This document shows, piece by piece, positions 15,999-60,902 of a DNA stretch of 64,000 nt (positions within the stretch are counted from its first letter, which is position 1; each line of letters opens with the position of its first letter). The DNA comes from Styela clava. Its lineage: Eukaryota. Location: NCBI RefSeq assembly GCF_964204865.1, contig NC_135261.1, positions 7,812,001 to 7,876,000 on the forward strand, in the 5' to 3' direction. Both the position numbers and the translations under genes were made by a program. Below the pieces are notes generated by a model. It did no database searches and was not told where the DNA came from. It saw only the letters and a program-made list of their open reading frames with translations.

Positions 15999-16352
15999 TA
16001 TGCTTAAAATGGCACTTATAAGTGCAACTAAAACATAAATTAAAAAGTTGATCAACATTGAAAAGCTGAATACACACATTCAAATACTATTTTAGCTAGC
16101 TTTTCGTGTAACGATGTGCAATTTCAATTTTTGTTTTCTCTTCACCTCTATTAGATTTCACAAATAAATAAGGATGAACTTTTAATAAAGATTCTAAATT
16201 AGTCATTTTATCTGACTTTCCTTGTAAAGATGTGCAATCTGAAGTGAATTTTAGTTCCGGTTAGTTCTTTATAAGATTTTAAAATGGATAACGATACACA
16301 TCTATTTATAAAGAATTCTAATGATTCGCCGCCACTCCAAGACTCAAATTTG

Positions 16353-16588
16353 GGTGCTCCCGAAGTATGCGAACCAAGATGGCGGACATCGGAACGTAAC
16401 ATTGGTAACAGGTTAGGGTAAGGCGATAATTTTTTTCCAATTTTTCTTATTTCAGCGCTATTAGCAGTTCGAACACTAGCCAAGAGCCTCCCGTAGTATT
16501 TATACCTAAAATTATGGCCTAACCCTAACCTAGTACACATATTACATTCCGATGTCCGCCATCTTGGTTCGCATACTTCGGGAGCCCC
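16353..16588. mobile_element. ~236-bp palindromic MITE with 8-bp TSD (Merlin-like); family A
   Basis: Long TIRs GGTGCTCCCGAAGTATGCGAACCAAGATGGCGGACA... and a perfect TSD caaatttg. Other copies at about 1-20, 1268-1480, 20822-20997, 27318-27527, 30345-30579, 52131-52245 and 60667-60902. Confidence 0.8.
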
Positions 16589-24322: not shown

Positions 24323-26075
24323 TTTGTATTTATTTGGCTTGATAAGATGGCGGGAATGCATGCCGAACTCACTCGGAGGATTGTATATGTATTGATGGAA
24401 GAATGTAGAATTACTTGTATCCAATGACTAATGGAGTTATTAACTATCGAGAAGTTTGATGTTGACGTTTTTCGGTGTTTTTGTAGATGTGTGTTTTTAA
24501 ATGAAAACCATATACATTTAGAAATTCAACAAAAACCTGACGCTATGTGAAAACATTAAATGTCTTGCGTTATTTTTGATACATTATGTGTGTTGTTTGC
24601 CACAAGGAATGAACGACCATTTTGATCCAATACCGCACAAGTCTACAAAAACAGTCACGGTAACGGCATAAATGTCTACAAGCAATTTCATAGAATGGAC
24701 TAACAGTACAAATTTCCTTGAACATCATAATGAAATACTCATTTTTCATTCGCAATTTGACAAGAAATGAATATCCAATACGAAGCGAAGAAATTTCTTA
24801 CATTGATTTTAATAGAAATAGACCCGAGCAACTCTTGACAAACTATTGGACGTTTAGTAGATTTCTATTGAGAATTTCAATATTTATTGATTCACATTTC
24901 TCAATCTAAACATGCCAGAGAATCAGTCGAGAACATGTTGATTTTATGAAGCTGTTGACAAACACGACAATAATTTGTTCGATTGATTGGATGATTCACC
25001 GGTTTTTTAGAGTTTGTATTAATAGTTTATGAAACAAGTTCAAAATTCTTTAGACCATCTGTGTTCTAATCCTCATTTCTCAATTAAATTGAAGACCTAC
25101 TGAGTTCATTTCTATATTCTTATTCCTTCCGTATTTACTCCCATTCTGCAAGATTCCTACAAGTTACGTTACAATTATTGGCAAAATCTTTCACCTGAAA
25201 TCTAAAATTTTCAGAAAATTTACGTTCAACTCAATTTTATAAATTATATTTCGTAATGCTAAATTTTCAATACGAATAAACGAAAAATACTAAGTAATAG
25301 ATTTGTTGCATAAATCAAAGAAATGGAGAATATTGCTTCCGCTGTGATGGTCAGTGTAAAATACTTTCGTCAAAACTAGCCTCCAATCGTTTAATTGAAT
25401 TGGAGATGAGCAGAAAACATCTAATTAAATAATTGAATGAGTAAGCAAATCAAATTTAGGTAATTTAAAAACGAATATATATATTACATAATGATATGCA
25501 TTTTTCAGTTTGCGTTACATAGTTTCGGTTAGATTTGCATGTCTTCAATTCCGAAAAGGGTCATGAAGTCCTCGACTATTTTCTCTTATTCTTCTTCGAG
25601 AGCGGAACAGCTGGAAATATACATTTTTATTAGTAAAATTAGGCATGACCCAATGGTAACAAGTTACTCTCTCAATTCACTATTTTACTAATTCACTAGT
25701 CAATAATTTATCCATTTTAGGTTGAATTTTTTATGCATTCCGATTTCTCGAGTATGTTAAATAATTGTACGGAAACCTGGTAAATTGGTAATTATGGCTG
25801 ATATCGTTATGACATGAACCATATATCGGTATATTTTGGGTTTAAAATCTGATTTTTTTTTTAGCTGGAAAGTTAAGGCTACACCAGGACGTAATAAATT
25901 GAATAATCTATTAAGCCTACTTTAAGGCCTACTTTAAAATACCTCGTTATCTAATTATATACACGACATGGAATGAACGGATGAAAGGTCGTGGTTGTTT
26001 GTCAAGTTTGACACTCATTTGTTTGCTAAGTGAAGACTATCATCTTCTATTCAAATAAGTTACGGCAAATGCTAC

Positions 26076-29000
26076 TCACATTAATCGACAAAGGCAGCAA
26101 AATATCCCTCCGGTAAAGTCCAAATCAATGTCTCCACAACAGTCAAGGTCACAACAGTCAAGGTCACAACATTCAAGTTCACAACATTCAAGGTCACAAC
26201 AGTCAAGGTCACAACAATCAAAGTTGCAACATTCAATAACACAGCAACTGCAATCATTCGTCGAATCGTTCGAGCCTGTATGTACAGAGATAGTTACTTT
26301 CCAAAGAAACGTATCCCAACATGGGAGGAATATCTCCCAACGGAAGAAGTGAGCAGGGATTGTGCCTAGTATTTGTTGTAATATTACTAATAGTTTTTTT
26401 TATTTTTTCTATTATTACTATAATATTTATTCACGAACACATAATAAACTTGAACAAAAACAAGAGTGCGACTTGCGCACAACACTAGAAAAGTTTAAGA
26501 TAGTTACATGCAGGAGGGGGCGGATAAAGAGTTCCAAAATAAGCAAAAGGAGAAACTTGACAAAAAATATTGAAACACTGCGGCTTTAAAGAGACGAATC
26601 AGTGCATTAGATTGCAAAGTAGAAACATTAAATTTTAAAAAAAAACTGTATTTATAATACGTATACACACTGAAGAACCAAATGAACGCATTTTTCTAGG
26701 ATACCGTTGTTAAAATAATAAATTACTGTCGCTCTGCTCATACTTCTCAAGCTAAATCGTTGAATCAGCTGGTGGTAAATAGCAATGGCGCAGTAACAAA
26801 ATTGCATCACATATTGGAGAGGCTAATCTGTTTTTCCTCTTAAAATTTAATAAAACAACTCTAATGCAGTCTCTTTACTGACTACCCTATATTTTGGACG
26901 TATAGACAAAGGAGATTAAAGTATTTCTCATATTTAAAAAAAAAAAGCAAGGTTGTTTTTTTAACAACTGTACTGATTGTGGGATAGATTTCAATTTTGC
27001 ATTCTTTAATAGGAGAGGCTAATCTGTTTTTCCTCTTAAAATATAATAAATCAACTTTACTGCAGTCTCTTACTGACTACCCAATATTTTTGACGTATAG
27101 ACAAGGGGATTGAAGCACTTCTCATATTTTAAATTAAAAAAGAGCAAAGTTGTTTTTTCAATACCTGTACTGCTTGCGGTTGAGATTTCTATATTGCTCT
27201 CCTCAACTGAAAATAGAAGTTTGTGTTCAACATATCCAAATTAGATTCAACAATCGATAGTAAACATGCTGAAAAACTACGTCTTCAATGTTTATGTATT
27301 TACTATGCTGAGTATTTGGTACGCTCGCAGTGTGTGTACCATGTTAGTGTTAAGCCATAATTTTATTCTAATTTCCCACATTTTAGTTGTATTACGAGTT
27401 CGGGAACTGTGTGTGTTAGCCAAGTTAATATACCCTCTGTCCATAAGTTTCAGTCCCTTTACACAACTTGGTGTAAAGTAGGCGAACAAAATTAGTTACC
27501 TCCATATTGTTACACACACTTCTGGAGCGACAATTGTTTTTGTTTACTTGGTTTTTCATATGAAAAATTCTAATCCTAATGATATTGTGTAAAATCGTTA
27601 GGTAAAAGTCAAGGTATAGTATGTTTTAAATAAGATTAATATTATGCTTAAAAGCATTACAATTCTCAGAGACATTCGTTTCCTTCTTTAACTAACAGTA
27701 ATGTTTTACTGGTCATCCAACATTCAATAACTAGCCGATTTATCGATTTTTACCCCAGGCATTCGATTTGCAATACTAATTCAACCCAACATAAAAATTC
27801 AAAATAACATTTCGGATTCACCTTTGCAATTTTCACAAATATTAGCTTTATTCTTGTGATGAACTCCGGCACCCAAGCATTCGGCGCAAAAAGCTCTCTT
27901 GCATTTGTTACAAAAGCTGACAAAAATAAAATTTGAGGATGTTTTTATAGCAAGGACAAAAATAAGTTTCAATCAGTAGGTTTTATATCTCAATTGTTAT
28001 ATAAAGTCCGAGTCGTATTCTTCTGATCAATATCCCTTGCCCAAAATTAGATTTATTCAGTCTTGCTAAATGGCATTCCATTTTCGCCAAGTCATGTCCG
28101 ATATAAGCCAAGTGGTTTTAGGAATTGGATATTTTAAGAATAAGAATTATGTATCGTAAAGTAATCGATATTTTTGTCTCTGTCCATCTCGAGTCAGTTC
28201 CGAGTCTTCATATCACGGTATACGTCAAAGAAAAATTATCGAGCAAATGTATCATAATTGGACTAGTCATTCAGTCGCGATAAAGAATAAAAATAAAAAA
28301 TTTCACTCGAGGTATCTCTTTTCTTCTTTGGCTCTCAAGCTATTTCTAATATGCTAATATTCAATTAATTATCTTTTATTTGTTTTAATTTTACTTACTG
28401 AACCATTCCTTTAAATTTCTCTGTACATCGGCAGCATCTTGGTGCCGAGTATCCAATTTCAGCCTCGTATTGCAGATTGCTTTGTGTTGTGTATAATGGC
28501 CATTGATGACTTTGAATACCCAGTCCCTGTAATGAACGTGTACGTCATTTGCGTGCACGAGAAAGCAAATAAAGTGAAAAGAAAGAAAGAATTGAGAAAA
28601 TTGTAGAAAAACGAACTATATGCTAAAACTAGAAGCGTTTTTAAGCAAATGAAGCATATTTTACCTGAATTTTTTTTAGGCAGCTGTCGCAAACGTTTTG
28701 AGGCTTTTCGACGGGAAGATATGGGAGGCAAATTCGATTTTTACTACATTCATCACAAAAAACATAACCACAAGCCCTGCAGTTAATCCTAAAATATCAA
28801 AAAATACCTCGATAATGAATAGCTATGTTATTTCAAAAATAAACTTTTCATTATTTTAATTCAATCACGGATTGAAAAGTGATTAAATATATAGATATAT
28901 TCTTCCGAATAATGAGATGACTGCTTGAATATCTAATTTTATTTTAATGAAACAAATTAAAAAGTATCCATATTTTCCTAAAACCAAAATAATGAAAAAT

Positions 29001-29683: not shown

Positions 29684-30344
29684 TGTTGAATATCGTTGTA
29701 TCAATATTCTGCTGTAGCGTACTAAAGTCCACTCACCCAAACCTTACTATTTTACCCTGTCTGCGTATCCTCACAGATGTCGTAGGTTATACGTACTAAA
29801 AGCAAATGTTAGGCATACCACGATTGCGTATTAGCAATTTTAAAAGTAAATTTTAATTAATAGGAGAAATGGCAATATCAAGAATCATATCATGTTGTTT
29901 GTTAAACACATCGCATTGTTGATGAATCACCACTGAAATAACTTGCAGTGTTTTTATAATATTAGTTGCCGATATTCGAGCTTCACCATTTTGTGCCTGG
30001 CTTTTCGGCCCACGCAAGCTGGAGTGCCGAGATATGTTTAGCAACATTGCGCAACGCCATTATTTCATGTTTTGTTAATGTTTCATTAAAGTATTTCGTT
30101 ATCATAATTATTAAGTGGAGGCGAAGTTAAGAGTCCCAACGCACGTTAAAATTAGGGATCGCGTTATTTTGTTTGCGTTGAAAAATTTTGAGTTAGCCTC
30201 TCCTTCATTAAAAAAAATAACAGAACAATAATAATACAACTCTACAACAATACTCTAACAATAATAATACAACAAAGGGAACTTCACTTTCATCAAGCAA
30301 TCGCGACCATCGTTCCTCGTGTTTTATCGCATCGTCCATTGTTG

Positions 30345-30579
30345 GGTACTCCCGAAGTATGTGAACCAAGATAGCGGACACCGAAACGTAGTATGTGTAG
30401 GTTGGGGTTAGGCCATAATTTCAGTTGCAAATACTACGGGAGTCACTTGGCTAATCCCTGAACTGAACTCGTAATAAAACCTAAATATGAAAAATTGGAA
30501 TAAAATTATGACCTAACCCTCTCCTGGTACACATACTACATTCCTGTGTCCGCCATCTTGGTTGACATTCGGGAGTACC
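30345..30579. mobile_element. Family A MITE (Merlin-like)
   Basis: Ends GGTACTCCCGAA ... TTCGGGAGTACC with a perfect 8-bp TSD cattgttg. Confidence 0.8.
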
Positions 30580-30870
30580 CATTGTTGCTATTATTTTGTT
30601 TTCAACAATGATACATGGCTTCCGACAGTCTACAGATGGCGGGTTTATGTCCCGAACCTATGTCATCATTAGTATATATCGAGAACGGTGAATGAAACAG
30701 TATAAGTCAATGATATGAAAATTTGCTTAGGAAATATTTACAAGTCCTGATACTGAATTCAATATTTGTATAGCTATCAATGATGGCCATATATAGGCTA
30801 TAGACTCTGAGCTCCTATAAAATCAAGAGCATTCTCATAGCGTCACTCTCAATTTGCGTTGTTTACTTAA

Positions 30871-36009: not shown

Positions 36010-36805
36010 GTCCATACGGTAATTGAAATTTGGGGAACATATAATACTCGGAAAGCGCCGTTCAATTTTGTGGGAAAACATAGTTTTAAATCTGATGAGT
36101 TGTTCATGAAAACATATTATATAAGAATAGCCAGAGTAGCAATGTCATGATCTTCAACTTTCAGATCATGGCAAAATCAAACGAAATGTCTATGATATTA
36201 TAATCGTGAATAAAGTCATTTTACATCAAAAATGCGTTATGTTATTTCGAAAAAATTGCTAGAATACTATATCGACTACACATCACCGCACAGAATGCTA
36301 GGTTTAATGGAATCCCCAAGTCAAAGTGAGGGAATATAACCGATAGCTGGATTGAGGGGGTTTCGTTTTTTGGAATGCTGTGGTAATCACCCGTTTTGTA
36401 GGTTGCACAAGAACACATACATCAATTTCTGAAATGAAGGAACCTGTTGTCAGTGGGTTCGATTCAAAATAGAAGCCGTTGAATCCCACCACCGAATTTT
36501 AAGTTTTTGGCGACGCATTGCTAATTATTTTCAGCATAAAAAGAACAATATTCCGTATGACACCATCGATTTATGGACAATGTGGATCAGGCAGCGAACG
36601 TTTGACGACATTGTGCCGATTAGAACTAACACAAGTACAAATTGAAAGATTCGAAATCCGCATCTGTCAGTCTGCTTCGTAGGTTCATACGTGTAATTAC
36701 ATGTTAAACGCATCAACATGCAATGCAGAATATTTGATTCTACAAATCTGATTTGTTTTGAAATTTATTTTCAGTAAGGCAACAATTTTCACAAAATGAT
36801 TACAC

Positions 36806-36910
36806 GACAAAAACAATCACAGTGATTATTGATGAAAACAAATTCACCCAGAATATAAACTCCCTGTTTTCGGCGTCCGGGTTACTCTTGCTTTAGATTA
36901 CGTTGAGGAG
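36806..36910 (+). promoter_or_regulatory. Conserved proximal promoter/5' block of EGF-ZP gene A
   Basis: TATAAA at 36854. The block is conserved with the reverse complement of 45285-45389, including 39 identical bp. Confidence 0.65.
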
Positions 36911-37013
36911 TTCGCGTTGTTTCGCATCATTTGTTGATCTGTGTTCTGTAGTTGGGTTAAAGTTTTCCAATTAATTTAGAACGTTGCTGAATTTTTTTTC
37001 AAAGTGTTCGAAA

Positions 37014-39361
37014 ATGGCAACCCTGCGTTGGTAAGAGAACTATAGTTTGTATGTTCTATTGAGTTTTAGATCGCGGTGTAATTTGTTTTTTGATTTTAGG
37101 TTTCTTCCGCTGCTCCAAGTTGCGATTTTGTTTGTTGGTACCCGCGGTAAGTTGATTATATTTTCCATGACTGATACGAACGTTTTCTTCGGTTTGTTTT
37201 TTATCTACTTTGCCTTTCCAACGTTAGGTGATGATGCGCCTGCGGAGGGGGCTGATTCGAACGACAAAGGAAATGAGACGGTGGGTGGCAGGTCTTTCGT
37301 GCCACATTTCCACGCCGCGTCTGCTTGTTCAAACGTGGTTTGCATGAATGGCGGTACATGTTATTCTACTGGCAGCAATCAACCTAATACAGCCAGGTGA
37401 GATCGCTGAATGACTCGTGATGTTGTTGGCTCAATGTTGTCTGTAACACACGTGAATTTGTTTTCAGGTATCAATGTCGGTGCATACTTCCATTTCATGG
37501 TACTCACTGTGAGCATGGCCAGAGATCCATCGTTATTCCAAGTACTAATCACTGCTATCCGAATCCGTGCATGAATGGAGGGTCTTGCTATACTTCAGGA
37601 AAGGGGTATGAAGAAAAATTCAATAATTCAGCTTGGTAATGTCTGTTTACAAATCTTTACCTCGTTGCGTTTTTGTTTTAGATACACATGCCGTTGTGCT
37701 GGCTCCTGGAGCGGCACTCATTGTGAAACTCCGTTGTATGTGAATCCTGTAGTGGTGCGCAACACTCCGTGTACACAGGGCTTCAACCCTTGTAATAACA
37801 TGTGCGAATGTGTAAATTCCTGCCGACATTCTTCTGGTTATTATTGCCGAAGCGCAAATGGCTATTTGGGAAAGAATTGCACGATTCGTGAGTATCTGTT
37901 GCGTGCAGTAGTATCAGTGGTATCTCTGGCATATTCTATTAATCTGTATTTGTTTATCCAGCTCCTCCAAACATTCAATGCTTGGCCAACCAAATCATCG
38001 TTACCGTGGACGATGCCTTTGTCCGTGAGTACGACTTAGGAATCGGGAACAGCAGGTTGTATCTTGGTCGAAATGGGGGCGGAGTTGTCGGTCAAGATTG
38101 CTACGCAATAACCAGCAACGGCATATCTCACACCTTCACCATACCTCTGCCTTTTGGAAAATGCGGCACATCTGTACAGGCAATCGGAGGCAAAACCGTC
38201 GCCAACAACGTAATCTGGTTAAACCGCTTCACCAATGCAGCGTATGACATGCCTGTTCCAGTTATTAATTTCGAGTGCACATACACTAAAGAATATATTA
38301 TCGTGACGTCGCTCCAGCCCGCGTAAGTTTTCATAGTTTGCATAATGCTGCGTTGTTCCGAAGAAATCTCATTTTGGATATTTTCAGAATCGACCAACCA
38401 CCCACTCTCCGGGAAACCGGATTCACTCGCGTGAGAGGAACTATAGAACTTTGCAAAGTGTCGTCATCTTGTCCTAACACCTGTCCGACAAATTTTGCAG
38501 TAAGGGAAGCTGCAGTTTATACGATTGGAGAAATGATTCATCTGAATATCAGGGGCGATCAAAGTATACAGGTCCGTGAATCTTGAACTTGAAGTGTAAT
38601 TCCTGGTTGTTAATTTAGTTGAATTCTAGTCTCCGGTCGGACCTTTTTTGGTTACAGGGAATCGTCGCATTGAAAACACTTTACCTCTCTTGTGACGCAA
38701 GTCCAAGCAATGCAATAGTGAGGCTGGTAACAAATGGATGCCCAGGAGGTTCACAGAATTACATGCCAACTAGAGTGACCTACAGTGGACGATCTTCTTC
38801 AGTCTGTGCCTCGTTCCAAGTACCTAGATTGCAGGGTTGTCCTGTCTTCTATATACACGCCGAATTGGAAACCTGCATTCCTTCAGTGGTAAATACTATT
38901 TATATAGCTTAAATTTTTCTAGTGAACCTTGCTTGGCAAACTTGAATCTTGTTTTTATTGCAGGGCTGTACTTATAATCCTAGTACTTGCGGCCAGCAAA
39001 TTATGCCCGGTCGTCGACGAAGAGATTTAAACGAAACTGAACATAAAGTTACAAATGTTTTCGGCCCAATTTATGTCCTGTCCGGAGAGCGCGGCGTTCC
39101 CTACGAAACCTTGTTCCCGAACACCACTATCGTATCGTCTCCAGCTCAGTTTTTGGAACCGAAGCCAGCTTCCGAGATTGTTCAAGGTTTGTTTGTATAT
39201 TCTTCTCTCGTTGCGTAAATAAAGATCAATTTTGTAACCAGATTTTTGTTTTTTAAGATTCCACATCTCTCCTGCTCATCGTTGGCTTGTCTTTGCTCTG
39301 CTTCCTGGTCATACTAAGCATTTCAGGATTAATTGTATACCGCTCTCGGTACTCCAAATAA
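37014..39361 (+). CDS. EGF-like x3 + ZP domain + furin site + TM protein, copy A (exons 37014-37030, 37100-37146, 37228-37396, 37468-37605, 37682-37887, 37962-38322, 38388-38571, 38658-38888, 38964-39186, 39258-39361)
   Basis: Signal peptide MATLRWFLPLLQVAILFVGTRG; EGF patterns C.NGGTC..YQCRC..F.GTHCE; ZP-N/ZP-C cysteine pattern (CGT, FECTY, CIPS..C); RRRR cleavage site; C-terminal TM. All splice phases are compatible. Confidence 0.92.
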
Positions 39362-39908
39362 TTTTAATTGTTTTACTTGTATTTGAATTACAAATAAAAA
39401 ACATTGTTGTTTTTGCACATAATTTGTCCTTTTGTTGGTTTAGCTTTAAACGGTTTTCGTCCATTGATGTGGTGGGCTAGGCTAGTCAGAAATTCTATTA
39501 GGAACATCTTTTATGAGATCGCAATCTACAAGAGGACTGATTTCGATAGGCTCGTTACAAAAACTTGGGCAATGCGTTGTCTTGGGATATTGCATTGTGG
39601 GTTGAATTACAAAAACGAAACTCTGGTAAAAAAAAGACCTGGTTGTCTTGGGATATTGCATTGATTATTTTATTTTCCAAACCTAGCTCCTAATTAAATC
39701 GGAAACTCAGTTTTGTGGTCGGTTCCGCAGATTTCTGTCGTGTCCGTAATTGATTTGTGTGTTCCCTCCTTACTAGATCCTAAGACGATTGCATCGTAAG
39801 TGAAGTGAAGAAATACCGTGCTGCCTACGATAAGTAATGAGAAAAACGGTTGCAATCTCTTACCAGCCATAGCTACGCAGAGTTGCGTCTATACAGATGC
39901 TGCTACAC

Positions 39909-41266
39909 CAGGGGTGGGCAATTACTTTTATGAGTGGGCCGGATGCGGATAATAGACTTGGTTACTGGTCCGGAGGATGAAATATCGATATTATCAAAAT
40001 TAATTAATGGGACTTCATTACAGGGGTTGGCAAATTACGGCAGCTGCGCAGAGAAAATATCTCAACAGCCATATTACCGTTTGATATTAAAGACAGCACA
40101 ATGTAACACTCTAGGTCATTATATATTATTTGATAAATAGGTCATTCAATAAGAGTAAACACCATCAAAAGATCAGCAAGTGACATGAATACAGACAGAA
40201 TAACTTAAGTAGTGTAACTGATGTACTACAGTGGTTCTCAAACTTTTTTGTACCGTCGCCCACGTAAAATACTTTTACGTTATCATCGACCCAAAACTAC
40301 AACAAAACAGCAACTTACAAACAAATGTATTAAAAAAACAAATAGAATGATTGCGGTGATCACTGCCTGATTATGATGAGAATTGATTTGATCGCAAAAT
40401 CCAAGGGTCGACCATGAAATCTTATGTGTACAATTTATTACAGTAATTTAATTCAATTAAAGTCAAATCATTACAACTCCTGGGATAATGCGACAATCTG
40501 GCGCCGTACCAACAAATGTTTGGGAGCAGCTTCGTCTTTACTTCGTCTAAAATAATCTTTAATCTGTCGAGGCACTCCTAAAACAATATTTATGATGTTT
40601 TCCGTTATATTTTATTTCAATATATATTTAGACACCGCTTCGTCTTACAATATTCACTTCCTCATTTTCAGTCGAAAATTGGATTTGAGGATTCAATATT
40701 TAGTTTGTATTTAGCGTCTAGTCTCAGATGATCACATAATAAGAAGTTTTTTACAATTTATGCACAGTTCCGGTGGAAAACATTTTTCGACGTCCTCATG
40801 GCACTTGTCATGCGGAATACTTGCGAGGTATAGTTCGCCGAAATATAGTTTGCCGATTTTCACGTTTTAAATACCCACGTTAGGCTGAAGAAAACAATTA
40901 CCGATTTAACTTAATTTTGTTCACCGAGTATGGATGATTCACCTCCCCTATGGATTTTCCACTCATTGTCTTATTCGTTTCGCGGCATTCAGGAAAGCAC
41001 GAACAAATTTGCAGGCCCAAATGCTGATATACCGGGAGCTAGAGTTTTTGAATGACATAAATAATTCGGATCGATGGTTTTGCACATTATATTCAGTGCT
41101 GATGATACGGGAGGAATTACGGTATTTACTTTAGCCGACGATCCGTTATTTCATCGATTTTTTAAACGGGAATTTATATCCATAAAAACAATATATAATC
41201 ATGATTTCAGCAGGCACAAGTGGGCCGGATGAAACACTCCAGCGGGCCGTAATTTGCCCACCCCTG
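39909..41266. mobile_element. Composite non-autonomous hAT element
   Basis: TIR CAGGGGTGGGCAA and TSD tgctacac/tgctacaa. Further hAT-type ends lie inside, at 40021 and 40229. Confidence 0.8.
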
Positions 41267-41403
41267 TGCTACAATAATTGTAATGTCAGAAAAATCATAA
41301 CACTCAATTTTTTGGCGACAGATGGCGTACTTTATTATCACACAGATTGCATGTCCCCAGAGCCAAAATTCAGACAATGCAGAGGCTATGCCACTTGTGA
41401 GGA

Positions 41404-41549
41404 TTTTGGTTACAGGGAATCGTCGCATTGAAAACACTTTACCTCTCTTGTGACGCAAGTCCAAGCAATGCAAAAGGTAAGGCTTATAACAAATGGCTGC
41501 CCAGGAGGTTCACAGAATTACATGCCAACTAGAGTGACTTACAGTGGAC
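41404..41549 (+). pseudogene. Orphan fragment of EGF-ZP exon 8 with its splice acceptor
   Basis: Near-identical to ~38647-38791 (GIVALKTLYLSCDASPSNA...NYMPTRVTYSG), with a 1-nt insertion. Confidence 0.9.
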
Positions 41550-41719
41550 CCCTCTTTAGCAACGACGTCACAAGCAATGTATCATGACGTCATATTCTTT
41601 CCGCGGTTATGTAAGGGGATATGCAGTGAATTGCGTGAAATACTAAGATTTTTAGCTACAGGTAAAATACGTAGGTCAATAGCAGTAAGTAATGTTATGT
41701 CATAAAAAGTCATGGTATC

Positions 41720-42820
41720 AGAAATCTGACGTTATAAACCAGTTACTTCAATTAATAATATGAAGCTTTAGGTTAGTGGTACCGACTAAAAATTATTCGA
41801 TTGAATTCGATTCATTCCAAGTGTTCAGTTAAATACAGTGTTTAATCCGGAACAAGCCGGTATAAACCATTTGCACAATTTTGTCACGGCAACAAAAGCT
41901 CTTAAGTCCGTAAGACCGCACTTCTTTTACCTAAATCGGAGGTTAAAGAGAACCCCTAAAATTATTAAACGTTGCGCCCCGGCGAACTAACTGGCATACA
42001 AAGACACAACCCTAGCCGCAAAATCTCGCTCGGGTTGCCGCATTACGGCAGTGGTCACCGTGAGAATAGACACCATATGCAAAAACGACGATGTTTTTAT
42101 TATAACTTCGAAACACAAAATACGAAATTACAATTAAAACGAATAAGAGATCATTTCGAGTATCGAGAACGGTAGATAACCAAGGCGGAACCAAGGCGGA
42201 GATGCTCAAGACCACAAGGAAGCAGAGCAAAGATAAGCCAACGATGAGCATGAAAGACATAGAATCTGAAAATGACAAATGAGAAATCTGACGTTATAAA
42301 CCAGTTACTTCAATTAATAATATGAAGCTCTAGGTCAGTGGTACCGATTAAAAATTACTCGATTGAATTCGATTCATTCCAAGTGTTCAGTTATATACAG
42401 TGTTTAATCCGGAACAAGCCGGTATAAACCATTTGCACAATATTGTTACGGCAACAAAAGCTCTTTTAAGTCCATAAGACCGCACTTCTTTTACCTAAAT
42501 CGGAGGTTAAAGAGAATACCTAAAACGCCCCGGCGAACTAACTGGCATACAAAGACACAATCCTTGCCGCAAAATCTCGATCGGGTTGCCGCATTACGGC
42601 AGTGGTCACAGTGAGAATAGACACCATATGCAAAAACGACGATGTTTTTATTATAACTTTGAAACACAAAATACGAAATTACAATTAAAACAAACAAGAG
42701 ATCATTTTGAGTATCGAGAACGGTAGATAACCAAGGCGGAGATGCACAAGACCACAAGGAAGCAGAGCAAAGATAAGCCAACGATGAGCATAAAAGACTT
42801 AGAATCTGAAAATGACAAAT
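41720..42820. repeat. Tandem duplication (~562 bp) of the last exon and 3' UTR of EGF-ZP copy B
   Basis: 41720-42280 matches 42282-42820 closely. Confidence 0.92.
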
Positions 42821-45182
42821 AAAGAATTTTTACTAAATGGGAAGTCTTTTTAACACGATGCAAGTTACATACGAACACAACACAAACCTTTAATAATTTC
42901 AGAAGCTGGCTTCGGTTCCAAAATCTGAGCAGGAGACGATACGATAGTGGTGTTAGGGAACAAGGTTTCGTAAGGAATGCCACGCTCCCCGGTAATAACG
43001 TAAATCGGGCCAAAAACATTCGTATCTTTATGTTCAGTGTCATTCAAATCTCTTCGTCGACGCCCGGGCATAAGCTGCTGACCGCAGGTACTCGGATTGT
43101 AAGTACATCCCTGTAGGAAAAACGAGATTCATGCTAGCAAGGTTCAAGAAAAATTAGAATTTATATCATAGTATTTACCACTGAAGGAATGCAGGTTTCC
43201 AATTCTGCGTGTATATAGAAGACCGGACAACCCTGCAATCTCGGTACTTGAAACGAGGCACAGACTGAAGAAGATCGTCCACTGTAGGTCACTCGAGTTG
43301 GCATGTAATTCTGTGAACCTCCTGGGCAGCCATTTGTTACAAGCCTTACTATTGCACTGCTTGGATTTGCGTCACAAGAGAGGTAAAGTGTTTTCAATGC
43401 AACGATTCCCTGCAATTTACAAACATTCCAATTTGAACAATCAATATGAAACCAGAAAATTGCAAGTCCAGATTCACGAACCTGTATGCTTTGATCGCCC
43501 CTGATATTCAGATGAATCATTTCTCCCACTGTGTAAACTGCAGCTTCCCTTACTGCAAAATTTGTCGGACACGTGTTAGGACAAGATGAAGACACTTTGC
43601 AAAGCTCTATGGTTCCTCGAACACGAGTGAATCCGTTTCCCCGCAGAGTGGGTGGTTGGTCGATTCTGAAAATACGCTAAACAATATTACCTTGAACAAT
43701 TTGAGCATTCTGCAGAATTAGGAATAACTTACGCGGGCTGGAGTGATGTCACGATAATATATTCTTTAGTGTACGTGCACTCGAAATTAATAACTGGAAC
43801 AGGCATGTCATATGCCGCATTGGTGAAGCGGTTTAACCAGATTACGTTGTTGGCGACGGTTTTGCCTCCGATTGCCTGTACAGATGTGCCGCATTTTCCA
43901 AAAGGCAGAGGTATGGTGAAGGTGTGAGATATGCCGCTGCTGGTTACTGCGTAGCAATCTTGACCGACAACTCCGCCCCCATTTCGACCAAGATACAACC
44001 TGCTGTTCCCGATTCCTAAGTCGTACTCACGGACGAAGGCATCGTCCACGGTAACGATGATTTGGTTGGCCAAGCATTGAATGTTTGGAGGAGCTGGACA
44101 TAAATAAAAACCAGATTACTCAACTATAATCGCGAGTCCTAAATACTACTGCACGTAATAGAGATACTCACGAATCGTGCAATTCTTTCCCAGATAGCCA
44201 TTTGCGCTTCGGCAATAATAACCAGAAGAATGTCGGCAAGAATTTACACATTCACACATGTTATTACAAGGGTTGAAGCCCTGTGTACACGGAGTGTTGC
44301 GCGCATTTATAGGATTCACATACAACCGAGTTTCACAATGAGTGCCGCTCCATGAGCCAGCACAACGACAGGTGTATCTAAAATAGAAATTGGACGAATA
44401 AAACAAGATTTGACATACAGCATCGGAAGGAATTTTTTTTAAGTTTTCTACATACGCATTTCCCGAAGTATAGCAAGACCCTCCATTCAAGCACGGACTC
44501 GGGTAGCATCGATTCGTGTTTGGAATAACAATGGATCTCTGGCCATGCTCACAATGAGTCCCGTGGAAAGGAAGTATGCACCGACATTGATATCTAAAAA
44601 TAACTCGATCAATCAGTCATTCGTCGTCACAAAAAAATGCACAAAAAAATGGTACAGAAACAAAATAAATATACTAACGCGAGGGACCTTGTTAGGTCTT
44701 CAAGAAGCGACAACGAGGTGCTGTTACCAGTTCAGTGTAAAACAACAAAATAACTGATATAATTGACCATTATAAGAATGTTACAAACCGTTCAGTCAAC
44801 CTACCTTGCCACATTAGACTGAAGGCTCCCGGTAGCGTAGCACGTACCGCCATTTAGGCAGATTACATTCGCACAAGCAGATGCGATGCGCTGGTGTGAT
44901 ATTGAATGTCTGCCCTCGGCTTTCCCACTTTCTTCATCTTTCGAATCGGCTACTCTCTGCTTGTCATCACCTTAAGATAAAGAATTGTTTTGAAGCACAA
45001 GCGAAGTGAAAAATCTTCTGAATATATGACAAAGTCAGTCCACTTACCGTGAGTACCCATGAACAAAATTGCAACTTGGAGCAGCGGAAGAAACCTAAAA
45101 CCAAAAAGACACAATGTATCGCGGATCTAAACCCATCGAAGAATACAAAAAATAAAGTGTCTCACCAACGCAGGATTCCCAT
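42702..45182 (-). CDS. EGF-like x3 + ZP domain + furin site + TM protein, copy B (inverted paralog)
   Basis: Same 10-exon structure as copy A. Runs MGILRWFLPLLQVAILFMGTHG ... PGRRRRDLN ... MLIVGLSLLCFLVVLCISALVIYRSRYSK*. Confidence 0.92.
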
Positions 45183-45284
45183 TTTCAAACAATTTGAAAA
45201 AAAACTTCTAACGGACTCCTGAGGAATAACTACAATCTAACCAAATACGAAACGCAAGTCAACAAAGAACGCGAAAAACGTAAG

Positions 45285-45389
45285 CTCCTTAACGTAATCT
45301 AAAGCAAGAGTAACCCGGACGCCGAAAACGTGGAGTTTTTATTCAGGGTGAATTTGTTTTCGTCAATAATCACTGTGATTGCTTTTGTC
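45285..45389 (-). promoter_or_regulatory. Conserved proximal promoter/5' block of EGF-ZP gene B
   Basis: Reverse complement matches 36806-36910 at the same distance from the ATG. Confidence 0.65.
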
Positions 45390-46782
45390 TTGTGATTATT
45401 TTTATTGCTCTTGTATTTGTCGCGCACTTTAAAGTAAATAGTAAAATTAATGAGATATTGTAGTATGCGTATACAAATGCATTGCGTGTTATTAATGCCA
45501 TACCACTTCCAAATAGCGAAAACAGCTAATAATTATGAAAATTTCAGCGAATGCATCACAATGATATTCCACTAGAAATCTGAAAATAGATTTTCATCCG
45601 AAGTAATATCATACAATGAATCCCATACTTGAAACTCCTGAATAACATCTCTTTCATCATTATTGTAATCGAGATTTCATCATAAGCATCAGGCAGGTAA
45701 AGATAAGCTCGGTTTAAGAGATCACCTGTTTGTCGTTGAAGGCTTCTGTGCATTTAGTGGTGCATATTCAATTTAATAGATTAGGTAATTGTAAGTAAGT
45801 ATCTTAAGTGTTATTAAGTCATAAATTGGTATAATAAACTCATTCAGAGAAGTAGGGTGATTCAATTGTTGCGCCGATGTTGTCCGAATGGCTAAGGTTG
45901 TTTGCTATGTGCTAATTTCAATTCCACATGGCACTTATTGAAGCTTTGTTTAAATCATCAAATGGTACATTCAGATGATGGTCTAACACTCTAACTAACT
46001 GATTAGTTTTATTATTTCTGTTTCAATCTTGCTCGGTTTCGAATATTAGACCATTTTGACAACCTACCTAATACATTTTACGCAATGGCTTCATAAGCTA
46101 AAATGATGTAGAATAGTAAAAACTAGTCCACCATGTTGTTTAAATGGTTGTATTTCCTTCAAACCAAGAGAGCGATTTTCAAATATATATATGGACACGA
46201 AAGTCAAAACGCTGTAGTACAGGGGTATGTTAGTCGTTGAGTACAGGTATTGCAATTTTTCACAGTAGACTATCGTTGCCGCAGTATTCACGACTTCGTA
46301 TATATATGTATATCATTGTCTATATCCAATGGCTATATATGAATAATAATAATAAAAACTATCATTCACCCTTGATAAGCAATATATTTCCCATGGAAAA
46401 TAACTGCTATTTCAGTATCATACTGCCTTAATACTGACATCTGATAATTGAAATAATCTGGACTTTAGTTTGTCTGAATGTGTAACAGGTGAAATAAGTA
46501 GATATATCCCAGCTTTTTATGCATTCTATTAATGATAATTCAGACTTCTCAATTTAGAAATTAATCTCCAGCAATAAACCGTTTGGCATTATAATTATTA
46601 ATCTGGTATTAAGTTTGGAAAAAATGTTACTATGGGAGGGCAAATAATGTTTGTTACAATTCGTTTTCCGTTTACTAAGTAATTCGTCTAATTATGACAG
46701 TGTGTGAAAATGAAAAGTATATTTTACTTGCGTGAATGCATCTGAAGACTTCTTTTTGCAACATCTTTTATTTAAATTATGT

Positions 46783-46990
46783 TGAAGCGAACTAACTTCT
46801 TTCTAACAAGAAAAAGACTTTGAACTATGTTGATGTTTAATCCATAACAAAGCAATGTTAACGACAAGCGAACAGAAAACAGAATGACAAGTTATCGTAA
46901 GAAAAGCACGTAAGTAATCATGCGTGACAAAAACATAAACAAAACAATTGTGACTCATAACGGCTATTATTAGTTAAGTGGTTCGCCACA
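46783..46990 (-). repeat. 3' LTR
   Basis: Identical by eye to 50865-51072. Confidence 0.96.
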
Positions 46991-47012
46991 CTACCCCCCC
47001 AGACGGAATGAG

Positions 47013-50000
47013 TTATAAAAATCTAGTGGGTTTACGAGTTTTTCTACCAAATTTGGTTCTGTAATCATAACCGGTTGTAGGTTGATCGTCTGTAGAACGC
47101 TGATTGTTCGTTGTTGTTTTAGGGATTGGAGGACGTCCTCTTGGTTTAGGAATGGATACAGAAACAGGATGGTCGAGATCAAGATGAGCTGGCTTTAACC
47201 TGTCAACAGAAATAGTTTCGCTTCGGTTTCCAATCTGTACTTTGAAAGTTTTATTCCCATGTTGCAAAACTTCGAATGGTCCTTCATAAGGTCTTTGTAA
47301 AGGAGATCGGTGTGCGTCACGACGAATAAACACGAACTTGGCTTGATTGAGTGCGGCTGGCATTCTTGCTCTGAAAGGACCATGGTGCGACGTAGGAATT
47401 GGAGCCAATGATCCTACTCTTTCTCTGAGAAGCCGAAGATTTGTGGTCGGGCAGCTATTGTCTTTAGAGTCTGATATGAAATCACCGGGGACAGTGAGGG
47501 GAGCGCCATAAACAAGCTCAGCTGACGATGCCGTAAGATCTTCTTTCGGAGCTGTGCGGATTCCCAATAAAACCCATGGAAGCACGTCCAACCAGTTTGA
47601 ATCATTGAGTCGTGCCTTAATGGCAGATTTCATTGTTCGATGAAAACGTTCTACCAAACCATTTGCCTGTGGGTGGTAGGCTGTAGTGTGATGAATTTTT
47701 GTTCCCAATAATTCGGCAACAGCAGACCAAAGGCCTGAAATGAACTGTGATCCTCGGTCAGAAGAAATGTGAAGTGGAACACCAAAACGGGCAACCCAAT
47801 TTGACAGGAAAGCTCGGGCACAAGACATAGTTGATATGTCTTTGAGGGGAATGGCTTCTGGCCACCTTGTGAAACGATCTACTATTGTAAGAAGGTAATT
47901 GTATCCTTGTGATGGTGGTAAAGGACCAACTAAGTCAATGTTGATATGGTCAAAACGTTTGTCTGGCATTTTGAAATCTTCTAAAGGGGCCCGTATATGA
48001 CGATTTATTTTAGACTTTTGGCATTCCAGGCATGTTTTGGCCCATTGTCCAATTTGTTTGGAGAGACCATGCCACACAAATTTTTGTGAGATCAGTTTGC
48101 GAGTGGTACGTATGCCTGGATGCGAGAGCCCGTGAACCGCATCAAAAATTTTTCTGCGCCAGCTGGCAGGCACTATAGGTCGTGGTCTACCCGTAGATAC
48201 GTCACACAGCAATGTAAATTTGCCGTTGCAAAAAGGGATATCTTCGACCCGAAGACCGGTGATAGCAGTGCGGTAAGCCTGTGTATCCTTGTCGTTTAGT
48301 TGATCTGTGGCCATAATTTCATAATCGATGCCGTCATTGATGTCGTTGATGACCGCGCGCGACAGGGCGTCGGCGACAGTATTATCCTTACCGGAAATAT
48401 GTTTTATATCTGTTGTGTATTCAGATATGAAATTGAGGTGACGCTGTTGTCGCGCTGACCATGGCTCAGAGACTTTTGCCATAGCAAAAGTGAGGGGTTT
48501 GTGATCTGTAAAAACCGTGAAGGGTCGTGCTTCGAGAAAATAACGAAAATGTCGTATTCCTAAGTAAACGGCCAAAAGTTCCTTGTCGAATGCACTGTAT
48601 TTCGTCTCGGGTTTGCGTAGCTGTCTACTATAAAATGCAATTGGCTTCCAAGATCCATTTAACTTTTGCTCGAGAACACCTCCTAAGGCAACGTCCGAAG
48701 CGTCGACTGTGAGGGCAGTTGGTGCGTTTGGTTGTGGATGTGTAAGCATAACTGCATTTGCCAGTACTTTCTTAGTTTTTTCAAATGCACATATCATACT
48801 GTCAGTCCATTCGGGCAAAACCTTCGACTTCTTGGGCAGGCCGGAAAGTGCTGCGAATAGTGGTTGCATTATTTGGGCAGCTTTGGGCAAAAACCGATGA
48901 TAGAAATTAACCATGCCAAGAAACTCTTGAAGGCCTTTTACAGATGAAGGGCGAGGGAAATTAGTTATCGCCTTCACTTTATTGGGGAGAGGAAAAGCAC
49001 CCTCCTTTGTAACAGTATGTCCCAGGAACTCTAATTCGCTTAAACCGAATTTACATTTGGCAGGATTGATAACCATACCGTGACTTTTTAGCCTTTGGAA
49101 AAGATTTCGCAAGTCCTTTTTGTGTTGATCTTTAGACGTACTGGCGATAAGGATGTCGTCAAGATAGACAAATACGAAAGGCAAACCTCGACAGATGGTA
49201 TCCATTAAACGCTGGAATACCTGGGCGGCGTTTTTAAGCCCAAACGGCATGCGGAGGAATTCAAATAGGCCAAACGGTGTGATAATGGCAGTTTTGGGGA
49301 TATCTTGTTCATGAATAGGTATTTGATGATAACCGCGAACAAGATCCACTTTAGAGAAAATTGTCCTTCCCGCAAGACGGGCCGTAAAATCTTGTATGTT
49401 TGGGACTGGGTAGCGGTCAGGCACGGTCATATCATTGAGACGTCTGTAGTCTCCACATGGGCGCCACCCGCCGTCCTGTTTAGGTACGATGTGAAGCGCA
49501 GACGCCCAGGGGCTATTTGAGGGTCGGATGATTCCGAGTTCAATCATGTTATCAAACTCTGCCTTTGCCGCGGCTAGCTTATCGGGGTGCAATCTTCGAG
49601 CCTTTGCGTGCACCGGGGGGCCTTCTGTAACAATATGATGCTTTACCCCGTGTGCAGTGGTCGGGTTGCTGAATGTGGGGCGCGTTAAATCAGGAAATTC
49701 GTTCAGAATTTTGGCAAAATCGTTTTCGGCTACGTAGTGAAGGCAAGGCGGGGTGCCAGTAATGGTTCTGGTTGGAATACAAGCGTATGTGCTTGCCTCG
49801 ATAAGTCGTTTGCCCCTGATGTCAACCAAAAGTCCGTGAGAGCGCAAAAAATCTCCCCCGATAATTGCCCGTGAAACATTGGCTAATGTGAATTTCCAGG
49901 TAAAATTTCTACCGCATATAGTCAAAGGCACTTTTCGTGTGCCATATGTCGTAATTGAGGTGCCATTAGCTGCCAAAAGTGCTTGTCCTGGTCGCCCGTA

Positions 50001-50150
50001 ACGACGGTCATGACCGGTGGCAGGCAGCACGCTGACTTGTGCACCCGTATCAACTAAAAAACTGCGTCCAGAGTTTTTGTCTGTGACGTAATAAAGGTTT
50101 GAATCGCCGACCGCCAAAGAGGTTACTGACGGTCGGCTATGGCGTTTTCC
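47013..50150 (-). CDS. pol: Pol polyprotein (protease, RT, RNase H, integrase), probably expressed by -1 frameshift from gag
   Basis: LVDTGA, YLDD, TVDAS, HHCC zinc finger, IDLVGP / SDRG / VERFH catalytic DDE, GPF module and a PRGRP AT-hook. The ORF is uninterrupted. Confidence 0.96.
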
Positions 50151-50803
50151 GAAACCACAAAAGAACATGGCGGGCGACATTTTTTGGCTTTCTTGCCGAA
50201 TTTCCTGTGATAAAAACACATTTCAGACAAAACATGAGATGGTTGTTTTTTGCATGAACTGGTTTTTTGTACAGCGTTTGTCACCTCATAGCCTTTTGCA
50301 GTTAAAATATCATCTGCTTTCCTTGCCAGCTTCCGAAAATCGTCGCCCGTGGTTGTTAAAATGTCTGTAAGTTGAGACCGGACGTCTGGTGGCAGATGAC
50401 TGACGAACAAATGGCGAAATAAGAAATCAGGTGTCTTACCTACTGGATACAATGCAAGCATGTTGTCCATAAGTTCCGTTGCCGTTCCATCCCCTAGTCC
50501 AGGCATTGAACAAAGGCGCGCAGCTCGTTCAGGATCCGTTAGCGAACATTTAGTAGTGAGCTTCTCTTTGAGATCTTGGTACTTGTTCGTTTCCGGCGGG
50601 TTATTGAGAACATTAAGAATGCTGGCAGCGGTATTGTCATCCAGAGCGGCAACCACGTAGTGGTATTTTGTTTCATCTGTTGTGATATTTCGAACAGCGA
50701 ACTGCGCTTCGACTTGGTGGAACCAAACGGCAGGATTTTTAGTCCAGAAAATCGGCAGCTTTAATGATACCGCTGTTAGGCCTACTTTGTTGTCTTCACT
50801 CAT
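50123..50803 (-). CDS. gag: Gag protein
   Basis: KLPIFW...[10 protein letters not shown]-terminus and [18 protein letters not shown] (C-X2-H-X9-C-X3-C), typical of CsRn1/Boudicca/Kabuki. Confidence 0.95.
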
Positions 50804-50864
50804 ATTCTTCGTTATGTGCGTATTCTTTTCTCAAAAGTATGCTTTTGAGGTCGGGGTCACCATT

Positions 50865-51072
50865 TGAAGCGAACTAACTTCTTTCTAACAAGAAAAAGAC
50901 TTTGAACTATGTTGATGTTTAATCCATAACAAAGCAATGTTAACGACAAGCGAACAGAAAACAGAATGACAAGTTATCGTAAGAAAAGCACGTAAGTAAT
51001 CATGCGTGACAAAAACATAAACAAAACAATTGTGACTCATAACGGCTATTATTAGTTAAGTGGTTCGCCACA
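50865..51072 (-). repeat. 5' LTR
   Basis: Identical to the 3' LTR and followed on the minus strand by the PBS. Confidence 0.96.
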
Positions 51073-59822: not shown

Positions 59823-60261
59823 CTCAATTATTCTATATATTATATTCACTGTTTCTGCGAATGAGGTAAATAATTTGCACGAAAATTCCCATCTGCGTTA
59901 GACGCACAGTCTTTCCCTAATCCTTGCACTCTTGCTGCTTTGCTACTACTTACTACTAGCTAGATTGGAGAAAAGTCTGATTCTTCACATTGACTGAAAA
60001 TATTCCAACGTTACTGCACTGAAACGATCTTTAAAGGAAACGACAAGTCAATTTTTTTTCTCATACGTGCACGTGACAAAACTACTATTTCAACCGAAAC
60101 AGTTCATGCAAACTACCTACTTAAAGTCAACGATTTGAACTTCGAAAATGATCGCTGGTGAAATAGCAAACAATGATGAGTCAAACGTTTCAACTCACAA
60201 AGTTCGTTTTATTCAATTGTGATAAATATATACGGGTATATATTTCTTGTTACATGCTGAG

Positions 60262-60358: not shown

Positions 60359-60666
60359 AACCACCAGAAAGCAACCAACGCGAACAATTTTTAATTTTGG
60401 TGACGCCATCGCAGACAAAAAAACGAACCCTATAATGCCCACAGATTCTTTTGAAATAAACGAAAGTAATGGCTATTAGCAACAATAATATTCGTCACCA
60501 CTGAAAATTTCAAAGCAATTGGTCCAGTAATTAAAGAGAAAGGCGACCTTTCAGAACATATCCACAATGACAAAAAAGAGTAAAAGAATGCCACCATCAA
60601 CAACATATATAATAACATAACGATCCATAGGTACACTTCGTATGGTCTGAAGTTCTCATGTTCTTC

Positions 60667-60902
60667 GGTACTCCCGAAGTGTGTGAACCAAGATGGCTGA
60701 CACCGGAACGTAGTATGTGTACCAGGTTAGGGTTAGGCCATAATTTTATTCCAATTTTCTCTATTTTAGTTCTATTACGAGTTCGAGGACTAGTCAAGTG
60801 ACTATCATAGTATTTGTACTCGAAATTATGGCCTAACTCTAACATGGTACAGATACTACCTTCCGGTGTCCGCCATCTTGGTTCACATTCTACTGGAGTA
60901 CC
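60667..60902. mobile_element. Family A MITE (Merlin-like)
   Basis: Full palindromic copy, GGTACTCCCGAAG ... TGGAGTACC. Confidence 0.75.

What the first reader, a model, noticed from the sequence alone, without database searches (positions are those of the whole stretch)
37014..45182. Inverted EGF-ZP paralogs with exon-restricted homogenisation and a divergent N-terminus
Seen: the 361-bp ZP-N exon differs at only about 8 positions by my count, with identical runs over 100 bp that include silent sites, while flanking introns barely align. The mature N-terminus is strongly diverged (DDAPAEGADSNDKGNETVGGRSFVPHFHAA vs DDKQRVADSKDEESGKAEGRHSISHQRIA). Established: EGF+ZP+furin+TM is the architecture of ascidian vitelline-coat precursors such as HrVC120/VC70, implicated in sperm binding and self/non-self recognition. 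Inference: ongoing gene conversion keeps the polymerising core identical while the exposed tip diverges.
Basis: partly seen in the sequence, partly recalled or inferred. Interest (0 to 1): 0.7.

Follow-up and report, generated by a model that had tools for sequence, protein, structure and literature searches.

The report
Sea-squirt egg-coat gene twins swapping DNA
A sea squirt has two old, back-to-back copies of a gene for a likely egg-coat filament protein; their middles are nearly identical and share variants between individuals, most likely because the copies keep overwriting each other, most strongly in one long exon that likely arose by losing an intron, while their different front ends show no sign of acting as self/non-self tags.

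Summary
Real, and mostly as described. The two genes are Styela clava LOC120329404 (A) and LOC120329406 (B): 10 exons, tail-to-tail, signal peptide, 3 EGF, ZP module, RRRR site, TM. Exon 6 differs at 8 of 361 nt (dS 0.07) against dS 1.4-1.7 in exons 3 and 10. Two other samples show none of the 8 differences is fixed, and two linked sites vary in both loci, which supports ongoing interlocus gene conversion and argues against mis-polishing. Corrections: (1) 6 of 9 introns do align, so identity is a gradient, not exon-restricted. (2) The peak lies far from introns, in a part of ZP-N less conserved than its edges; exon 6 lacks an intron found in at least 9 of 11 paralogous loci. (3) The tip shows pN below pS and is almost invariant between individuals, so positive selection and allorecognition are unsupported. 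(4) The nearest named relative is HrVLP-1, not HrVC120/VC70. Both genes are transcribed; tissue is unknown, so the egg-coat role is inferred. Conversion between inverted duplicates is well known, and this scan noted a similar PARP14 pair elsewhere in this genome. Verdict: a new, well-supported example of a known process.

The parts
36793..36921 (+). Upstream non-coding block of gene A, 89% like the block upstream of B (likely promoter/5' leader)
   Evidence: only two matches in the genome
37014..39361 (+). Gene A (S. clava LOC120329404), 559 aa; coding exons 37014-37030, 37100-37146, 37228-37396, 37468-37605, 37682-37887, 37962-38322, 38388-38571, 38658-38888, 38964-39186, 39258-39361
   Evidence: 8 of 9 introns seen as GT..AG joints in RNA-type contigs
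37228..37396 (+). Exon 3 of A: predicted disordered N-terminal tip plus EGF1; not homogenised (dS about 1.7 to B)
37962..38322 (+). Exon 6 of A, ZP-N, 361 nt; conversion peak; lacks the intron near residue 241 found in paralogues
39909..41266 (.). Non-coding element with 13-nt terminal inverted repeats and an 8-nt flanking duplication (7 of 8 match), hAT-like (label recalled), in the spacer
41404..41549 (+). Orphan 146-nt copy of the end of intron 7 and start of exon 8, 95% to A, with three B-type sites
41717..42280 (-). Tandem duplicate of B's last exon and 3' region; its TM exon carries an 11-nt insertion and gives RefSeq isoform X1 (608 aa)
42702..45182 (-). Gene B (S. clava LOC120329406), 558 aa; coding exons 45182-45166, 45094-45048, 44970-44805, 44593-44456, 44377-44172, 44093-43733, 43665-43482, 43409-43179, 43110-42888, 42805-42702
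43733..44093 (-). Exon 6 of B, ZP-N, 361 nt, 8 differences from A
45274..45402 (-). Upstream non-coding block of gene B, matching that of A

Best explanation
These are two old, transcribed, tail-to-tail duplicates of an EGF-ZP gene related to HrVLP-1, likely encoding egg-coat filament subunits, whose middles are most likely kept alike by ongoing DNA-level gene conversion that is strongest in the one long exon likely created by an intron loss. Shown: silent divergence is 0.07 in exon 6, 0.16-0.6 in the neighbouring exons and 1.4-1.7 in exons 3 and 10; other samples carry variants in both loci at once. Inferred mechanism: a break in one copy is repaired from the inverted neighbour 5.4 kb away; repair needs a stretch of uninterrupted identity, and the 65-86-nt introns, which collect small indels, act as leaky barriers. 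Exon 3 and the 3' exons diverged enough to escape. The tip differs because it is unconstrained and no longer converted, not because it is selected to differ. Inferred function: after signal-peptide and RRRR cleavage the ectodomains would polymerise through the ZP module, so A and B would be near-interchangeable subunits that differ mainly in a flexible 30-residue tip.
For: Per-exon dS gradient; chi-square for fourfold sites in exons 4-10 p 0.0007 and run test p about 1e-5. DNA run X1 has one 324-nt contig over 37957-38280 at depth 92 against 44-59 for locus-specific contigs, B-type at 38020/38108/38118 and A-type at 38239/38242; RNA-type run X5 has one contig over 38039-38322 at depth 2695 (A 1093, B 1256 in exon 4), B-type at 38108/38118/38239/38242 and A-type at the last three sites. 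So 0 of 8 exon-6 differences are fixed, and 38239+38242 occur in both states in both loci. 38834 G>A is in all X1 contigs but in neither window copy. Controls: ZP paralogue pairs with 58-68 of 70 identical residues differ at 9/30 to 21/27 fourfold sites, including a same-strand pair 12 kb apart (15/27), against 5/58 here. 0 of 38 codons more than 120 nt from an intron differ silently, against 63 of 377 nearer (p 0.003), and that zone is less conserved than the exon's edges in 7 of 8 distant homologues, equal in 1. Intron near residue 241 seen with both ends in 9 of 11 paralogous loci. ZP fold: best structural hits are ZPD and uromodulin filaments, E 2.5e-13 to 1e-10. Family.
Against: The shared-variant evidence rests on collapsed contigs from two samples; contigs drop rare variants and depth is a rough guide; reads were laid on the A side only, and the raw-read run X21 gave 43 reads. 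The distance-from-intron effect comes from a single exon, so it is one observation; below 120 nt there is no trend (15-18% in every bin), and exon 9 (223 nt) is more diverged than exon 5 (206 nt). Exon length versus pS is weak (rho -0.71, p 0.05 for exons 3-10; p 0.11 for exons 5-10). The intron-similarity gradient is not significant (p 0.11). No second species was available, so species-wise clustering of A with B was not tested. Tissue of expression is unknown; ZP proteins also act outside egg coats (own knowledge). Pfam did not detect the ZP domain and the model's domain arrangement is unreliable (pTM 0.36).
Confidence: 0.8

Rival explanations
1. One reading: conversion plus selection keeps the polymerising core identical so A and B co-polymerise, while the exposed tip is driven apart for sperm binding or self/non-self recognition, as in abalone VERL.
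For: Tip is predicted disordered and N-terminal (pLDDT under 50 for residues 20-51); pN 0.42 in the tip against 0.007 in exon 6; VERL precedent of divergent N-terminal repeats and homogenised rest (PMC2704960, passages); selection against conversion in the tip cannot be excluded with two sequences.
Against: pN 0.42 < pS 0.64; EGF1 and the TM exon are equally unconverted at silent sites; tip differs by one residue between RefSeq versions of each gene and by 0-1 nt in X1 and X5 contigs of A, unlike the polymorphic HrVC70 (PMC9265791, passages); the peak of identity is not the most conserved part.
Confidence: 0.15
2. RNA-templated conversion: a reverse-transcribed mRNA of a highly expressed germ-line gene is the donor, which would favour exons and could also explain the lost intron.
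For: Exons more alike than introns; one precise intron absence shared by both copies; high contig depth in an RNA-type run; a retroelement with an open pol frame and identical terminal repeats lies 1.6 kb away.
Against: All 9 remaining introns are kept in both copies; 6 of 9 are still alignable and several intron 5' edges match at 9 of 10 nt; 3' exons are the least homogenised, opposite to the 3' bias expected of cDNA (own knowledge); the orphan fragment in the spacer includes intron sequence, so it was copied from DNA.
Confidence: 0.07
3. No conversion: a duplicate whose exon silent sites are held by purifying selection while introns and ends evolve fast, or a recent duplicate.
For: pN and pS correlate across exons (rho 0.90); exon 6 has somewhat higher GC3 (65/119 vs 132/323, p 0.01).
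Against: Equivalent ZP-N exons in other paralogue pairs are 30-78% diverged at fourfold sites; dS 1.4-1.7 at the ends excludes a recent origin; variants shared between loci are not explained; fourfold-only GC is not significant (p 0.2).
Confidence: 0.04
4. Assembly artefact: reads of one copy were polished onto the other.
For: Copies are close and 98% identical in exon 6.
Against: Other samples are more alike in exon 6 than the window is; older RefSeq versions of both proteins, which differ from the current ones at 10 and 8 residues, show the same pattern.
Confidence: 0.02

Closest known systems
HrVLP-1 (Halocynthia roretzi VC70-like protein-1, BAF56474.1)
   Same: Signal peptide, EGF repeats, ZP module; best named hit (49% overall, 51% over ZP); same clade at SH-aLRT 99 in a quick tree with S. 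clava LOC120335331 and an unnamed protein. Described as a VC70-binding vitelline-coat ZP protein (PMC9265791 section 3.2).
   Different: 848 aa with 5 EGF repeats against 559 aa with 3; one-to-one orthology unresolved, LOC120335331 is an equal candidate; no VC70 binding tested here.
HrVC120 / HrVC70
   Same: EGF-ZP precursor of the same ascidian family (39% identity); O-fucose consensus C-x-x-G-G-S/T-C in EGF1 and EGF2 of both copies.
   Different: 12 EGF repeats, released from the ZP part as VC70, polymorphic among individuals. Here 3 EGFs and little allelic variation; HrVC120 groups instead with LOC120338939 (SH-aLRT 96).
Abalone VERL
   Same: Egg-coat ZP protein with N-terminal part divergent and the rest homogenised (PMC2704960, passages).
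   Different: VERL homogenises tandem ZP-N repeats inside one gene and its repeats 1-2 are positively selected; here two separate inverted genes, no positive selection detected.
Gene-converted inverted or tandem duplicates (Capitella Dlx pair; Arabidopsis halleri HMA4; Drosophila amylase, Hsp70 as cited in the Dlx paper)
   Same: Mosaic identity including silent sites, tail-to-tail linkage, tracts leaking into introns (PMC3199776, passages); silent sites protected near constrained sites, introns escaping, shared polymorphism (bioRxiv 10.1101/2025.10.29.685298, abstract and passages).
   Different: In HMA4 short introns stay homogenised; here 65-86-nt introns have largely escaped, and the peak falls in an exon fused by a likely intron loss.

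Membership tests
ZP-module proteins | ZP-N and ZP-C beta-sandwich domains | tested here: met
   Predicted strands over residues 196-301 and 331-447; top fold hits ZPD, uromodulin, ZP3; uromodulin-labelled chain by sequence E 6e-6. Pfam ZP model did not hit.
ZP-module proteins | Signal peptide, consensus furin site after ZP-C, C-terminal TM helix | tested here: met
   N-terminal hydrophobic helix 2-18, RRRR at 468 (A) and 467 (B), helix 520-557; no dedicated signal-peptide predictor was run.
ZP-module proteins | Polymerises into filaments | not testable with these tools
   Inferred from fold only.
Ascidian vitelline-coat ZP family (HrVLP-1, HrVC120, Ciona Vc182/Vc569) | Sequence clade with known coat proteins | tested here: met
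   tree is the quick IQ-TREE run of 49 rows, the careful search did not finish.
Ascidian vitelline-coat ZP family (HrVLP-1, HrVC120, Ciona Vc182/Vc569) | Oocyte expression and presence in the coat | not testable with these tools
   Spliced contigs of both copies in RNA-type runs, tissue not given.
HrVC120/VC70-type allorecognition receptor | About 12 EGF repeats processed to a ZP-free fragment | tested here: not met
   3 EGF-like repeats; HrVC120 pairs with another S. clava gene.
HrVC120/VC70-type allorecognition receptor | High polymorphism among individuals in the exposed part | tested here: not met
   One tip residue differs between RefSeq versions of each gene; 0-1 nt in two samples for A. 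Small sample.
s/v-Themis-type self-sterility locus | Linked polymorphic sperm-side (polycystin-like) and egg-side (fibrinogen-like) genes | tested here: inconclusive
   No such Pfam hit among 50 of the 119 listed frames scanned; short exons would be missed.
Concerted evolution by interlocus gene conversion | Clustered silent identity in an old duplicate | tested here: met
Concerted evolution by interlocus gene conversion | Polymorphisms shared between loci | tested here: met
   38239+38242 and 38834, from unphased contigs of X1 and X5.
Concerted evolution by interlocus gene conversion | Paralogues group by species in converted regions | not testable with these tools
   No orthologue from a near species was found.

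The most novel reading that the evidence does not exclude
Loss of one intron created a conversion hotspot: by fusing two short ZP-N exons into 361 nt of uninterrupted homology it locked two old egg-coat genes together in ZP-N, so that gene architecture, not protein constraint, decides which part of an egg-coat filament protein evolves as a single shared allele pool, leaving two fixed N-terminal tips displayed on one interchangeable filament.
Probability: 0.35. Interest if true: 0.55.

Novelty: new member of a known kind. Interest (0 to 1): 0.4.

Why it matters
It is a compact natural test of what limits gene conversion: short introns, equal protein constraint across four exons, one long exon, and segregating shared variants that date tracts to within the species. 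It also warns that a conserved core with a divergent tip in a gamete-surface gene pair can arise from recombination mechanics alone, without selection for recognition. For ascidian fertilisation it names two candidate vitelline-coat subunits related to HrVLP-1 and points to LOC120338939 as the likelier VC120 counterpart.

Tried and rejected
Pfam did not find the ZP domain; fold search was needed. X20 (another organism label, depth 3-6) looked like the same species' alleles at low depth and was not used as an outgroup. Residues where an older RefSeq allele matches the other paralogue (4 of 10 for A, 6 of 8 for B) were rejected as proof of conversion, since any private variant in a near-identical region gives this. 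GC-biased conversion: GC3 is raised in exon 6 but fourfold GC is not significant, left open. A swap of 3' halves by spacer inversion was not seen in the older RefSeq proteins. Read evidence covers the A side only; the spacer and B's unique parts were not checked against reads. No complex prediction was run. Literature searches for Styela clava with vitelline coat (3 papers) or zona pellucida (1 paper), for ascidian ZP with gene conversion, and for intron loss with conversion and exon length listed nothing on this pair or on this mechanism by title and abstract start; the library lacks most subscription papers. Earlier scan notes near this place or on this protein: none.
Full report
What is there. 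Self-comparison shows a 2-kb inverted match between 37458-39420 and 44603-42626 plus upstream matches. Both arms are intact 10-exon genes with GT-AG introns, 559 aa (A, + strand) and 558 aa (B, - strand), tail to tail. A is identical to RefSeq XP_039251945.2 of Styela clava (LOC120329404) and B to XP_039251946.2 (LOC120329406). Exon 6 and the upstream block each have only these two DNA matches in the genome. Contigs of RNA-type runs show 8 of 9 predicted introns as splice joints and carry both A-type and B-type exon 4 at similar depth (1093 and 1256 in X5); RNA status is the tool's guess, supported by the joints, and tissue is not given.

Protein. Hydrophobic N-terminal helix, a predicted disordered tip (residues 20-51), three EGF-like repeats, ZP-N and ZP-C, RRRR at 468, TM helix. 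Pfam missed the ZP module but the model's best fold matches are ZPD, uromodulin and ZP3. Named homologues are ascidian coat proteins: HrVLP-1, HrVC120, Ciona Vc182 and Vc569. In a quick tree of 49 ZP regions (rows covering under 200 residues and isoform P0004 left out; careful search unfinished) the pair groups with HrVLP-1 and LOC120335331 (SH-aLRT 99), while HrVC120 groups with LOC120338939 (96). HrVLP-1 is described as a VC70-binding coat protein with 5 EGF repeats, and VC70 as the 12-EGF fragment of HrVC120 (PMC9265791, section 3.2 read; other passages). Ciona coats hold 11 ZP proteins (PMC8849226, passages). The egg-coat role is therefore an inference from family, about 0.7 likely.

The observation. 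Exon 6 differs at 8 of 361 nt, longest identical run 120 nt. Silent divergence (JC dS) by exon: 2, 0.38; 3, 1.66; 4, 0.47; 5, 0.16; 6, 0.07; 7, 0.32; 8, 0.18; 9, 0.59; 10, 1.42. Fourfold sites are heterogeneous over exons 4-10 (p 0.0007) and silent identity is clustered (p about 1e-5). Introns are more diverged than exon-6 silent sites but 6 of 9 align above shuffles; the three that do not (2, 3, 9) flank the two most diverged exons, though the rank correlation over 9 introns is not significant (p 0.11). The pattern is a gradient with a central trough, not a clean exon/intron split.

Is it conversion? Controls: in four other S. clava ZP paralogues (6 pairs), the second ZP-N exon keeps 58-68 of 70 residues yet differs at 9/30 to 21/27 fourfold sites; the same-strand pair 12 kb apart differs at 15/27. 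A/B exon 6 differs at 5/58. So protein constraint alone does not hold silent sites. Other samples: in DNA run X1 a single 324-nt contig covers 37957-38280 at about twice the locus-specific depth, so A and B are identical there, B-type at three window sites and A-type at 38239 and 38242. In X5 a single contig covers 38039-38322 at about the summed depth of A and B, B-type at 38108, 38118, 38239, 38242 and A-type at 38281, 38308, 38311. Hence none of the 8 window differences is fixed, and the linked pair 38239/38242 is found in both states at both loci. 38834 G>A is in all X1 contigs and in neither window copy; a four-site cluster at 38520-38526 is B-type in the one X1 contig covering it (depth 78), matching V359 in the older A protein. 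By contrast exon-7 sites 38430-38481 separate A from B in X1, X5 and X20. Shared polymorphism is the expected signature of interlocus conversion (bioRxiv 10.1101/2025.10.29.685298, abstract and passages; its supplements are closed). Limits: contigs are unphased and drop rare variants, the table showed only the best-supported rows (70 not shown), and raw reads (X21) were few; X21 read B-type in 8 of 8 reads at the exon-7 sites, which is unexplained. These data also argue against mis-polishing, as do the older RefSeq proteins, which I take to come from another assembly because they differ at 10 and 8 residues.

Why exon 6? Long-term constraint, measured as identity to 8 distant homologues, is flat over exons 5-8 (0.44-0.47), and codons 234-273 are less conserved than the exon's edges in 7 of 8 homologues. 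Yet codons more than 120 nt from any intron have 0 of 38 silent differences against 63 of 377 elsewhere in exons 4-9 (p 0.003). Such codons exist only because A and B lack a phase-1 intron just after the ZP-N cysteine near residue 239-243, seen with both ends in 9 of 11 paralogous loci, with the acceptor only in 1 and unresolved in 1; the nearest paralogue in the tree keeps it. I infer an intron loss in the A/B ancestor that created the longest uninterrupted homology. This rests on one exon and is a hypothesis; the need for a minimum length of identity is established knowledge, discussed in PMC3199776 (passages).

The tip. Over 28 aligned codons pN is 0.42 and pS 0.64; EGF1 in the same exon has pN 0.16 and pS 0.70. 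The whole exon has escaped conversion and the tip is merely less constrained. It is nearly invariant among alleles: one residue per gene between RefSeq versions, 1 difference in 684 nt in X1 and none over exon 3 in X5 for A. HrVC70 is polymorphic among individuals and VERL repeats 1-2 are positively selected (PMC2704960, passages); neither feature is met here, on a small sample. Whether the tip survives processing is unknown.

Comparison and verdict. Conversion between closely linked inverted duplicates with mosaic identity is well documented, and the scan noted a similar inverted PARP14 pair in this genome (e1-9853280, not checked here). Searches listed no paper on this pair; those were seen as listings only. 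The finding is real and the conversion inference is good; the recognition reading is not supported; the intron-loss link is the one fresh, testable element. Interest 0.4; new member of a known kind.

Noticed in passing
window 46782-51072: LTR-type retroelement upstream of gene B: two identical 209-nt direct repeats, an open 1069-aa frame with protease, RT, RNase H and integrase hits, and a 235-aa frame (DUF7041); apparently a young insertion.
   Followed up: partly
window 41404-41549: Orphan piece of intron 7/exon 8 in the spacer, A-like at its 5' end with three B-type sites that X1 also shows without an A-type alternative; possibly a templated insertion from break repair.
   Followed up: partly
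window 41717-42820: About 560-nt tandem duplication of B's TM exon and 3' region; the distal copy is frameshifted by 11 nt; a loose end in X1 shows the duplication exists in another sample.
   Followed up: partly
window 39909-41266: Non-coding element with terminal inverted repeats and an 8-nt flanking duplication in the spacer.
   Followed up: no
L006 (G000:C19) and L009 (G000:C8); L008 and L010 (G000:C19): A compact four-member ZP subfamily (LOC120334245-like); L006 and L009 are 78% alike over 2 kb on different contigs with a shared upstream block; L008 and L010 lie 12 kb apart on one strand without homogenisation.
   Followed up: partly
window 56920-59897 (-) and 6687-7058 (+): Exons with sulfotransferase (PF17784) and F5/8 type C (discoidin) hits; neighbouring genes not annotated further.
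   Followed up: no
window 26059-26369: 15-nt tandem repeat array open in several frames, possibly a mucin-like coding stretch.
   Followed up: no
window 1259-1507, 16343-16598, 20822-20996, 27292-27540, 30339-30581, 60664-60905: Dispersed family of about 240-nt palindromic elements.
   Followed up: no
window 38430-38526 in run X21: All laid reads (8 of 8 and 5 of 5) were B-type in exon 7; either sampling at low depth or a converted A allele in that sample.
   Followed up: no
window 62608-63908 (-): Fragments with reverse-transcriptase hits in separate frames, a second, broken retroelement.
   Followed up: no
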